Origin: Heptranchias perlo
Taxonomy: Eukaryota
Direction: 5' to 3'
Assembly (NCBI RefSeq): GCF_035084215.1
Contig: NC_090337.1
Coordinates: forward strand, 41,540,001 to 41,604,000
DNA: 64,000 nt
In this document: piece by piece, positions 3,301 to 6,300 of the stretch
Numbering within the stretch: position 1 is the stretch's first letter
How the letters are laid out: every line of letters starts with the position of its first letter
The notes under the pieces: model-generated
What the model saw: the letters and a program-made list of their open reading frames with translations, nothing else
Databases searched by the model: none
Told to the model about the DNA's origin: nothing
Translations under genes and position numbers: made by a program

Positions 3301-6300
3301 TGAGAAGCATTGTTGTGTCAGTGTGTAATCTGAGGACTTTATACAAAGATAGAGTTTTGTGTTCAGCGACTTGAGGGTCGCCAGTGCTGCAGAATTAAAT
3401 GATTTTCTATTTTTGGACATCAAAGTGAACCTTAACCCCAACCTCAGCTTGTTTTACATACCAGTCATCCTTATGGGTATATAAATAAGATTTGCAATTT
3501 TTTCTAACTTATAGGCAACTTTGAGTTCTAAACCTAAATCCACTCAGAGTTAAATTGAGACTGAGCCTAACCATAGGACACTTACAGGAGGAAGAGAACT
3601 AGCAACTGTTCTGCACTGAATCTTGGTTGCATTGGAATTCAAGTTCCAAAGTGAAAGCAGACTGTGTTAAGTTACTGTGGCGACCAGTCTCTGTTCTGAA
3701 CACACTTTAACCCTCTGAATGCTCCTGTTGGTAATTTCCTGAGTTTGCGCTGATGGCAAGAACCTTGTCCGCCATTGGCACAGTATGCCTACGGTTTTCT
3801 GATATATGCTGGTGGAAGATGAGGCTCCCACCACCAGCATATACCCAAAAAAGAACCCTCAAGCTGTTTTAATGCAAGGGAATAGTTAAACCTTTTGAGA
3901 ATTGAAGCTGTCAATGTATAGGCTGAAGGTGATTTAACGCATTCAGTATTGAAGGCATTGTGTACTAAAGGTATCAACCTTGTATATTAAAGGTATCAAC
4001 ATGTGATATTAGGACAGTTCAACCCTCTAAGCTATTCTTTCATTTCTGATAAGAACTTTTTTGCACATCTATCTATAATATATATTTTTAAAATCCTATA
4101 TCTGCACACACTTCCTGTCAGCTTTATCCATTATAAATTTCTGTGTCCACATTTATAATGGGAACTGCCCACATAAACAAAGTGGTGCTTGGCCTTCTTG
4201 ACCCAGGCCAAAAAGGTGTCCTCCCACTGACCTCGCAAACACTGCGGGATCAGCGGTGGAAGAATTTCAGGGCAAAATGCTCCAACCATCTCTGCTTCCC
4301 AAATTGTGGCACATTTTATGATTTAACTATAATTAATAATATCAAATCAAAGTAGTATGTAAAGATAAGGACAAAATGCATGACTTTAAAATGACAAACA
4401 ACTTACACCTCCCTGTGTGCAAAGCAATGGGTAATTGATTAGTAATTTATTAAAAATCTTACATTTGTGTGTGTTTCCTGTTGGCAGGTTTTTTTTAATT
4501 AGAAACTCCAGTGTCCATATTTGTAATGGAAACTGCCTATGTAAACTTAATACATTATAATTATGATGTGGAGATGCCGGTGATGGACTGGGGTGGACAA
4601 ATGTAAGGAGTTGCACAACACCAGGTTATAGTCCAACAGCTTTATTTGAAATCACAAGCTTTCGGAGCTTTGCTCCTTCGTCAGGTGAAGTGAAGAGTTG
4701 CATAAAGGCACAGCATATATAGTCAGAGAACAATGCCTGGTGATTACAGATAATCTTTCTAACTGCCCTTTATTAATGATTTAGATGAAGGGACCGTGTG
4801 TAACGTATCCATGTTCGCTGATGATACAAAGATAGGTGGGAAAGTAACTTCCCTAAAGGGCAGTTAGAAAGATTATCTGTAATCACCAGGCATTGTTCCC
4901 TGACTATATATACTGTGCCTTTATGCAACTCTTCACTTCACCTGACGAAGGAGCAAAGCTCCGAAAGCTTGTGATTTCAAATAAAGCTGTTGGACTATAA
5001 CCTGGTGTTGTGCGACTCCTTACATTATAATTATATCCCCCTGCCAGTGGTGTCAATCAAGTGCCTCAGTTTTGCGTCTCCCAGCTCCTTAGTCTGTACT
5101 AAAGAGTAACTCTTGTGTTCCAACCGATTCTACTTCTCTGCTTCCCAAATTGCCCTAAGTTTCACTATTATTTATAAATAACAATATAAAATGAAAATAT
5201 AAAGAAAAGATAAGGACAGAATGCATGATTTTATAATGAAACTGAATGAGGTCTATCTGCCCTAGTCTAATTATTCCCCACCCTCTAATCTCGCTCCACC
5301 TGAAGACTAAACTTGGTCTTGTCTCCCCCGGTGCAATGCTATGGGAGATTGGCATGTATTCTTGACGAGGAAAAGGAAAAATATCATTAAACACCCTAAG
5401 TAGAGTACACAGAAACACGTAATTAAGGAAGTGGTAACAGGGCACTTAGAAAATCATAATATGATTAGGCAGAGTCAACATGGTTTTATGAAAGGGAAAT
5501 TGTGTTTGACTAATTTATTAGAGTTTTTTGAGGATGTAACTAGCAGGGTAGATGAAGGGGAACCAGTGGATGTAGTATACTTGGATTTTCAAAAGGCATT
5601 CAATAAGGTGCCACATAAAAGCTTGTTACACAAGATAAGGGCTCATGGGGTTGGGGATAATATATTAGCATGGATGGAGGATTTGTTAACGGACAGAAAA
5701 CAGAGAGTAGGGATAAACGGGTCATACAGGCTGGCAGGCTGTATCTAGTGGGGTGCCACAAGGATTGGTGCTTGGGCCTCAGCTATTTACAATCTTTATT
5801 AATGATTTAGATGAAGGGACCGAGTGTAATGTATCCATGTTCGCTGATGATACAAAGATAGGTGGGAAAGTAAGCTGTGAGGAGGACACAAAAAGTCTGC
5901 AAAGGGATATAGACAGGTTAAGTGAGTGGGCAAGAAGGTGGCAGATGGAGTATAATGTGGGGAAATGTGAGGTCATCACTTTGGTAGGAAGAATAGAAAA
6001 ACAGAATTTTTTTAAATGGTGAGAAACTAGTAAATGTTGGTGTTCAGAGATATTTGGGTATCCTCATACAAGAAACACAAAAAGTTAGCATGCAGGTACT
6101 GCAAGCAATTAGAAAGGCAAATGGTCTTTATTACAAGGGGGTTGGAGTACAAGAGTAAGGAAGTTTTCCTACAATTGTACAGGGCTTTGGTGACACCTCA
6201 CCTGGAGTACTGTGTACAGTTTTGGTCTCCTTATCTCAGGAAGGATATACTTGCCTTGGAGGCGGTGCAACAAAGGTTCACTAGATTAATTCCTGGGATG

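What the first reader, a model, noticed from the sequence alone, without database searches (positions are those of the whole stretch)
4551..5034. TSD-flanked Penelope palindrome with hammerhead ribozymes on both strands inside a host intron
Seen: 173-bp arms (4600-4772 and 4854-5026, about 3 mismatches), an unpaired 35-bp tail, and a 14-bp direct repeat TACATTATAATTAT whose first 6 nt overlap the arm end (microhomology). Each arm carries an intact minimal hammerhead core (CUGACGA...GAAAGCUU). Established: Penelope-like elements carry minimal hammerheads in their pLTRs, these work mainly as dimers, and inverted pLTRs with a short tail are a known insertion product. Inference: the host pre-mRNA contains a sense ribozyme plus its upstream near-perfect antisense, so the hairpin could mask the ribozyme and act as an ADAR/Dicer substrate. 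Transcription from either direction gives the same arrangement.
Basis: partly seen in the sequence, partly recalled or inferred. Interest (0 to 1): 0.7.

Follow-up and report, generated by a model that had tools for sequence, protein, structure and literature searches.

The report
Penelope palindrome patched with neighbouring LINE
This mirror-image stub of a very common jumping gene sits in an intron of a shark digestive-enzyme gene and is an already described kind of insertion; its one distinctive trait is a centre that matches an 80-base stretch of DNA 1 kb away and was likely copied from there while the two halves were being joined.

Summary
The structure is real: 173-bp arms (3 mismatches), one-sided 35-nt tail, 14-bp target duplication, and a minimal hammerhead motif in each arm, inside an intron of a maltase-glucoamylase-like gene. 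It is ordinary: the exact hammerhead occurs 1,560 times in the genome, 13 head-to-head pairs lie among the first 100 listed matches, and opposite-strand hammerheads and inverted pLTRs with a one-sided tail are published. Sister insertions (46 of 48 with one tailed and one tail-less arm; arms sharing variants) favour two reverse transcripts primed from both cut ends and then end-joined, here with a templated patch; these steps are inferred. In read-through RNA the ribozyme fold is predicted to be fully masked; no host function is supported. Earlier notes of this scan report the same palindromes in this genome and similar local patches in other genomes. Low interest; a usable mechanistic footprint.

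The parts
4551..4564 (+). left copy of the 14-bp target-site duplication
   Evidence: single-copy site in paralogues of the older target repeat
4565..4599 (-). Penelope tail (the ~36 nt that precede the ORF start in the full element); present on this arm only
4600..4773 (-). tailed arm: 5'-truncated 3' end (pLTR region) of the Penelope-like family, 99% to reference copy L031 (positions 2909-3082)
4652..4688 (-). minimal type-I hammerhead motif, minus strand (mirror of 4938-4974)
4768..4847 (+). 80-nt patch of CR1 LINE RT DNA, 78/80 identical to 5794-5873; first 6 nt (4768-4773) shared with the left arm
4848..4853 (+). 6-nt linker of unresolved origin (snap-back on the patch or re-copy of the arm, each with one mismatch)
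   Evidence: sequence
4854..5026 (+). tail-less arm (reference positions 2910-3082); last 6 nt shared with the right target repeat
4905..4937 (+). TATA-like box (4905-4912) and TCACT initiator-like site (4933-4937), 20 nt apart; mirrored at 4721 and 4693 on the minus strand
   Evidence: same layout described for Adineta Pen2a; promoter activity untested
4938..4974 (+). minimal type-I hammerhead motif: stem I 4938-4941/4971-4974, core CUGACGA 4942-4948, extra A 4949, stem II 4950-4962, GAAA 4963-4966, palindromic AGCU in place of stem III, predicted cut after U4970
   Evidence: architecture as in PMC4209133
5021..5034 (+). right copy of the target-site duplication
5794..5873 (+). donor of the patch, inside a decayed CR1 copy spanning about 5422-6758
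2785..6911 (+). host intron (GT..AG) between two in-frame exons of the C-terminal GH31 domain of a maltase-glucoamylase/sucrase-isomaltase-like gene

Best explanation
This is a dead, head-to-head insertion of a GIY-YIG Penelope-like retrotransposon whose centre matches a neighbouring CR1 LINE, and it was likely made by two reverse transcripts primed from the two cut DNA ends and then likely sealed by repair synthesis that copied 80 bases from DNA 1 kb away. Shown: family identity, layout, target duplication, and the match of the patch to the neighbour. Inferred: (1) a staggered cut about 14 bp wide gave two 3' ends; (2) the top-strand end primed at the tail start site and the bottom-strand end at the tail-less start site of the same source RNA, the two sites found in vitro for the anole element; (3) both copies stopped within 1 nt of each other; (4) the top-strand 3' end annealed through 6 nt to the bottom strand of the CR1 copy, exposed about 770-850 nt to the right of the cut, was extended 74 nt, released, and after a 6-nt second patch joined the other copy (polymerase-theta-like or related end joining). 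The two hammerheads are passengers: predicted to be locked in the arm duplex in host pre-mRNA and without a neighbouring same-strand partner. Odds by step: family and layout 0.97; neighbour as template 0.93; two-ended priming 0.7; patch made during integration by DNA repair rather than later or by the RT 0.55-0.6.
For: Family: L031 holds pLTR-ORF-pLTR with the ORF starting at the tail end; RVT_1 E 1.3e-9; C-terminal region 40% identical (E 9e-19) to the Pfam GIY-YIG-bearing region of P0043. Template: best genome match to the patch after itself is the neighbour (98%, next 94%; 40 of 1,722 candidates scored); a 26-mer is found only at the patch and the neighbour in 3.25 Gb; the two share four variants (4770, 4812, 4816, 4832) of which none of 20 other copies has more than one at an intact site, and the variant at 4770 is what creates the 6-nt overlap. 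Two-ended priming: 46 of 48 complete head-to-head insertions have one tailed and one tail-less arm by automatic rule; tail-less ends fall within 3075-3087 in 41 of 42; the tailed arm is the shorter in 21 and the longer in 21 of 42; arms of one locus share non-majority alleles at 0.86% of sites versus 0.16% between loci (maximum of 300 shuffles 0.25%); 30 of 42 have an exact TSD of 10 bp or more. The anole protein cuts and extends both strands and starts at two sites that bound the tail (PMC11167929). End joining: of 54 junctions 29 overlap, 7 are blunt, 12 have 1-9 nt and 6 have 10 nt or more of filler; several fillers match Penelope sequence beside the breakpoints. Templated insertions begun at microhomology, also from distant templates, are reported for polymerase theta (PMC7454005) and at L1 insertions.
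Against: This locus is the only one of 54 junctions with a long flank-derived filler (flanks searched only 0.4-3.4 kb), so the route rests on one case here. Its arms carry no shared variant, so the same-source test is uninformative for it; within-locus similarity could also come from later gene conversion. Inner ends within 30 nt of each other are over-represented (11 of 42 versus 2.5 expected), which independent truncation does not explain and which a later centre break would. Divergence of patch from donor (2/80) and of arm from arm (3/173) cannot order the events. Reported theta insertions are mostly 2-35 bp and L1 templates mostly lie within 15 bp of the site; 80 nt from about 0.8 kb is long and far. 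No enzyme was tested.
Confidence: 0.58

Rival explanations
1. The insertion first formed as a longer or more perfect palindrome; later its centre broke (hairpin or cruciform cleavage), was trimmed symmetrically and was repaired with the CR1 patch.
For: Arms end within 1 nt of each other; near-symmetric junctions are enriched (11 of 42 vs 2.5) and more often carry filler (7 of 11 vs 8 of 31, p 0.034; for 4 nt or more 5 of 11 vs 4 of 31, p 0.038).
Against: Symmetry also follows if both copies ran off the same RNA end; fillers occur in asymmetric junctions too; patch and arms have similar divergence. The filler association is modest and small gaps depend on alignment ends.
Confidence: 0.2
2. The Penelope reverse transcriptase itself jumped templates: the bottom-strand copy switched from element RNA to the neighbouring CR1 sequence (nascent host pre-mRNA or exposed top-strand DNA) and then annealed to the other copy at the 6-nt overlap.
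For: The orientation fits: the bottom-strand copy would use plus-strand (host-sense) sequence as template; the right junction has no clean overlap. Capture of nearby pre-mRNA and DNA-templated extension are reported for L1.
Against: An RNA route needs a gut enzyme gene to be transcribed in the germ line (general knowledge, not tested); no other junction of 54 shows such a jump to flank.
Confidence: 0.13
3. The second arm is a fold-back (self-primed) copy of a single cDNA or RNA, as proposed for Adineta elements.
For: Proposed in PMC3846280 from junction palindromes; at this locus the tailed arm contains the whole tail-less arm and there is a 6-nt overlap with the target at the tail-less end.
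Against: In 21 of 42 sister insertions the tail-less arm is the longer one, which fold-back of a tailed cDNA cannot give, while a tail-less cDNA cannot supply a tail; tail-less ends cluster at one site (41 of 42).
Confidence: 0.04
4. The hairpin is a regulatory device for the host gene (switchable ribozyme, ADAR or Dicer substrate, or cryptic polyadenylation site).
For: Predicted 173-bp duplex, -343 kcal/mol, 101-bp perfect run; Penelope repeats are hyper-edited in a lizard (PMC5625713); AATAAA at 4980 on the sense strand; other same-strand hammerheads of an older subfamily at -55519 and -37635 could in principle be partners.
Against: One of 1,560 exact motif copies; young (99% to family); the motif is conserved across the family, not specially here; partners are 42-60 kb away and one is itself inside a palindrome; minimal hammerheads cleave poorly even as dimers or need the element's protein. 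Incidental editing is plausible but is not a function.
Confidence: 0.03
5. Assembly artefact joining a repeat arm to the neighbouring CR1.
For: Both parts are high-copy repeats; no laid contig spans the whole stretch.
Against: Arms differ at 3 sites and the patch differs from its donor at 2; TSD is exact; a 97-nt contig identical to 4746-4842 is present in 3 of 4 DNA runs at flank-like depth, though with under 31 nt on the arm side and possibly from the assembly's own sample.
Confidence: 0.02

Closest known systems
Insertion units of endonuclease-bearing Penelope-like elements with an inverted 5'-truncated copy, one-sided 30-40-bp tail and TSD (PMC8557442 passages; PMC3846280 passages)
   Same: Head-to-head arms, tail on one arm only, TSD, TATA-like box 20 nt before TCACT, ORF starting at the tail.
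   Different: No ORF left at this locus; centre is filled with non-element DNA from a neighbouring LINE.
Minimal hammerheads of metazoan PLEs (PMC4209133, parts 1-2 of 4 read)
   Same: 4-bp stem I, extra base between 9 and 10.1, G10.1-C11.1 pair, palindromic 15.2-16.2; the paper already notes pairs 100-700 bp apart on opposite strands.
   Different: Stem II is 5 bp here; activity of this sequence not measured.
Poseidon element of the anole in vitro (PMC11167929, parts 1-2 of 4 read)
   Same: Two RT start sites bounding the tail; both strands cut and extended; fits the two outer-end classes seen here.
   Different: In the parts read the paper does not tie the two sites to inverted insertions; in this family the hammerhead lies about 100 nt upstream of the start codon rather than over it.
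Templated insertions at L1 integrations and at polymerase-theta junctions (passages: 10.1101/2024.08.27.596794; PMC11702581; 10.1101/2022.05.18.492429; PMC7454005)
   Same: Short duplication of nearby genomic DNA inside an insertion, begun at a microhomology.
   Different: Here between two inverted Penelope cDNAs; donor about 0.8 kb from the cut, farther than the 15 bp typical for L1 and longer than typical theta patches.

Membership tests
Endonuclease-bearing Penelope-like elements | Single ORF with RT | tested here: met
   L031 ORF, RVT_1 E 1.3e-9; family level, not at this locus
Endonuclease-bearing Penelope-like elements | C-terminal GIY-YIG endonuclease | tested here: met
   Indirect: Pfam and PDB miss it in family copies, PHROGs gives only weak endonuclease hits (E 0.15), but the region aligns at 40%, E 9e-19, to the Pfam GIY-YIG part of P0043
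Endonuclease-bearing Penelope-like elements | Pseudo-LTR partial tandem | tested here: met
   L031 1795-1985 repeated at 4912-5102, 96%; also L082, L101
Endonuclease-bearing Penelope-like elements | Optional 30-40-nt tail at one end; inverted 5'-truncated copy; TSD | tested here: met
   35-37-nt tail; 46 of 48 one-sided; TSD 14 bp
Endonuclease-bearing Penelope-like elements | Clade (Penelope/Poseidon, Neptune, Nematis) by RT phylogeny | not tested
   No named reference sequences were available from tools; domain order excludes Naiad/Chlamys
Minimal type-I hammerhead | Core C3-A9, G12-A15.1, U16.1-H17 with stems I and II and palindromic stem III remnant | tested here: met
   core intact in 105 of 123 sampled copies (approximate de-duplication); closing pair of stem II C-G in 105, G-C in 8; other pairs nearly invariant, so little covariation
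Minimal type-I hammerhead | Match to Rfam hammerhead models | tested here: not met
   No hammerhead family at E up to 5 in 3500-6000; the motif lacks stem III, which such models expect (recalled)
Minimal type-I hammerhead | Self-cleavage as dimer or with element protein | not testable with these tools
   Unconstrained co-folding of two 39-nt copies did not give the dimeric active fold; folding programs do not model the core
Polymerase-theta-type templated insertion | Insert copied from nearby DNA with microhomology at its start | tested here: met
   78/80 to 5794-5873, 6-nt overlap
Polymerase-theta-type templated insertion | Microhomology at the resolving end | tested here: inconclusive
   6-nt linker 4848-4853 fits two templates with one mismatch each
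Polymerase-theta-type templated insertion | Dependence on polymerase theta | not testable with these tools
   Needs cells
Non-LTR retrozyme (tandem hammerhead repeats) | Two or more consecutive same-strand units | tested here: not met
   One motif per strand in the 64-kb window; definition from 10.64898/2026.07.22.740005 passages

The most novel reading that the evidence does not exclude
Inverted Penelope insertions are built by priming both cut DNA ends on the same RNA, one at each of the two start sites that bound the tail, and the two like-sense cDNAs are then joined by host end joining that can reach about 0.8 kb into the flank for a patch; the shark copies form a natural record that lets this unexplained step of the Penelope cycle be tested.
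Probability: 0.5. Interest if true: 0.45.

Novelty: new member of a known kind. Interest (0 to 1): 0.24.

Why it matters
How Penelope-like elements make their tandem and inverted structures is described as still undefined (PMC8557442). This locus and its sister copies give a concrete, testable reading: two start sites, two primers, one source RNA, and a repair-type seal whose donor can be named because it carries private variants. It also implies a long single-stranded or invaded flank during the event. As a ribozyme or host-regulation finding it does not matter: the arrangement is a by-product shared by very many copies.

Tried and rejected
Rfam scan: no hammerhead model matched. Pfam, PDB and PHROGs did not directly call the GIY-YIG domain in family copies; the ESM Atlas look-up gave no result. 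Sequencing runs: no RNA holder listed, so expression, editing and small RNAs were not examined. Laying contigs did not show or exclude an empty allele or an orthologous empty site; the listed pieces were dominated by paralogous repeats and tables were cut. Cap run-off (lead from earlier notes): rejected for this locus, since both arms extend about 80 nt upstream of the predicted start and neither junction adds a C; older-subfamily arms do stop at the predicted start (reference 2991-2993). A bias for the tailed arm to be slightly shorter in near-symmetric pairs (9 of 11) was noted but is too small a sample to rely on. The 42-nt 'filler' of L071 and the pair in L095 were dropped as older-subfamily or unrelated arms, and L036 and L097 for low identity (58 junctions to 54, 46 pairs to 42). 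Retrozyme or self-mobile palindrome: rejected, centres differ among copies and the patch 26-mer exists only here and at the donor. Literature: searches 'Penelope + templated insertion' (3 papers), 'Penelope + twin priming' (3), 'Penelope + shark + palindrom' (4) and a five-term search showed no listing on patched Penelope junctions; only listings were seen for most hits, subscription papers are missing, and no supplement was read (the bioRxiv supplement cited bears on template distances).

Full report
Observation. The sequence has two 173-nt inverted arms at 4600-4772 and 4854-5026 with three mismatches, an unpaired 35 nt at 4565-4599, and an exact 14-bp direct repeat at 4551-4564 and 5021-5034 whose first six bases are also the end of the right arm. 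The same 45-nt hammerhead-like stretch lies on each strand. The insertion lies in an intron (2785-6911) between two in-frame exons; the downstream exon matches maltase-glucoamylase at E 3e-30, best in its C-terminal half, and both match Pfam GH31 at consecutive profile positions. A second set of GH31 exons 45-51 kb upstream on the same strand is probably the N-terminal half of the same gene. The target was an older repeat: of 9 paralogues, 4 place the left flank at offset 0 (one copy of the 14-mer site), 1 at -1, 3 at +1 or +2, and 1 lacks the left flank.

Family. The arm has at least 1,574 first-look candidates in the 3.25-Gb genome (40 scored); the exact 35-nt hammerhead occurs 775 + 785 times with 0 for the reversed control. 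Locus L031 holds pLTR-ORF-pLTR, the ORF beginning at the end of the tail. The ORF has an RT domain; its C-terminal part is not called by Pfam or PDB but aligns at 40% (E 9e-19) with the GIY-YIG-bearing part of homologue P0043. The nearest named proteins are from sharks (84-93% identity). This is an endonuclease-bearing Penelope-like element; its clade was not determined.

The layout is common and published. Among the first 100 listed exact hammerhead matches on contig C1, 13 neighbouring pairs within 5 kb are head-to-head, none tail-to-tail and one tandem. In 118 fetched locus records (overlapping, and chosen by similarity to three queries, so biased to young copies) there were 58 distinct head-to-head junctions, 48 with both outer ends visible; 46 have one tailed and one tail-less arm, and the two exceptions look by eye like a tail with an internal deletion and a tandem whose true end was missed. 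An older palindrome of the same kind lies at -37720 to -37517 and another at 75779-76037. Inverted 5'-truncated copies with a one-sided 30-40-bp tail are described in PMC8557442 (passages) and PMC3846280 (passages); minimal hammerheads 100-700 bp apart on opposite strands in PMC4209133 (parts 1-2 of 4).

The spacer. Bases 4768-4847 are CR1 LINE RT sequence in the same orientation as a decayed CR1 copy at about 5422-6758, and match its 5794-5873 at 78 of 80. Genome-wide, the neighbour is the best match (98%; next 94%; 40 of 1,722 candidates scored). A 26-mer from the patch occurs exactly twice in the genome, at the patch and at the neighbour. Against 20 other close copies (5-7 differences each) patch and neighbour share four variants, one of which creates the six bases common to the left arm and the patch. 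A 6-nt linker follows on the right. A 97-nt contig identical to 4746-4842, carrying both patch-specific bases, is present in three of four DNA runs of one sample at flank-like depth; it has fewer than 31 nt on the arm side and may come from the assembly's own sample, so it is support but not independent proof. Of 54 junctions kept, 29 overlap by microhomology, 7 are blunt, 12 have 1-9 nt and 6 have 11, 13, 15, 16, 20 or 80 nt of filler; several shorter fillers match element sequence next to the breakpoints, and only this one matches flank within the 0.4-3.4 kb searched.

Mechanism. The anole element cuts and extends both strands and starts reverse transcription at two sites that bound the tail (PMC11167929, parts 1-2 of 4). 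In this family tail-less ends fall in a 13-nt window in 41 of 42 pairs, either arm may be the longer (21 and 21), and 30 of 42 keep an exact TSD of 10 bp or more. Arms of one locus share non-majority alleles five times more often than arms of different loci (0.86% vs 0.16%, 42 loci), as expected for one source, though later conversion could contribute and this locus itself is uninformative. The simplest reading is two cDNAs, one per cut end and start site, joined at their inner ends. Here the top-strand cDNA ends in the six bases shared with the donor, so it could have annealed to the donor's bottom strand on the far side of the cut and been extended. Such patches are reported for polymerase theta (PMC7454005 passages) and inside L1 insertions (passages), although usually shorter or nearer. 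Against this reading: inner ends within 30 nt of each other are over-represented (11 of 42 vs 2.5 in permutations) and more often filled (7 of 11 vs 8 of 31, p 0.034), which a later break at the palindrome centre would also give; the data cannot order patch and insertion.

Ribozyme and host. The motif has the published minimal architecture. The core is intact in 105 of 123 sampled copies and the closing pair of stem II is C-G in 105 and G-C in 8; other pairs barely vary. In the folded 4565-5030 RNA every hammerhead pair has probability below 2e-15, and the longest perfect duplex is 101 bp. Single minimal motifs were inactive and dimers weak in PMC4209133; the anole motif cleaved only with protein. 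The nearest same-strand motifs found in 194 kb are 42 and 60 kb upstream and 71 kb downstream. Editing of such a hairpin is plausible (PMC5625713 passages) but untested here. Each arm keeps a TATA-like box 20 nt before TCACT, the layout noted for Adineta Pen2a, so outward transcripts from inside the arms, if any, would not be masked.

Earlier notes of this scan (unchecked AI notes, consulted after my reading was fixed) describe the same palindromes many times in this genome and local DNA patches of 33, 101 and about 465 nt in other genomes. They are not independent evidence, but they show the pattern is not special to this window.

Verdict. Real, well explained and mostly known. The ribozyme-on-both-strands aspect is a by-product. 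The named, variant-tagged donor of the central patch is a tidy footprint of how inverted Penelope insertions are likely sealed. Novelty: new member of a known kind; interest 0.24.

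Noticed in passing
window -37720 to -37517 and 75779-76037 (L155, L160); single arms at -55524 and 93545: Older-subfamily Penelope palindromes and fragments with minimal hammerheads; the palindrome arms and the -55524 fragment stop at reference 2991-2993, the predicted transcription start.
   Followed up: partly
window about 4110-5260: The target is an older interspersed repeat (about 80% between copies, 1,201 candidates) present here as a decayed tandem with a period near 370 bp once the insertion is discounted; not identified.
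   Followed up: partly
family-wide: Near-symmetric inner breakpoints are four-fold enriched, and in 9 of 11 such pairs the tailed arm is 1-29 nt shorter; unexplained, might reflect two RTs on one RNA.
   Followed up: partly
L005/L032, L009, L015, L019, L021, L027, L028, L068, L077: Single-arm insertions mostly lack a detectable TSD, whereas two-arm insertions keep one; L019 looks like a small target deletion. Not counted formally.
   Followed up: no
L061, L066, L089, L097: A sub-lineage of the element carries a GA/CT microsatellite-like insert between reference 2776 and 2794 on both arms.
   Followed up: no
L071 centre: Older palindrome whose centre is itself a 15-bp perfect hairpin with a 4-nt loop, probably arm sequence of an older subfamily.
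   Followed up: no
window 3795-3851: Small imperfect inverted repeat, 21-nt arms, 86%; weak Rfam match below threshold.
   Followed up: no
P0014: A predicted shark protein joins epsin-type domains to this element's RT at 94% identity, suggesting an annotation or exonisation chimera.
   Followed up: no
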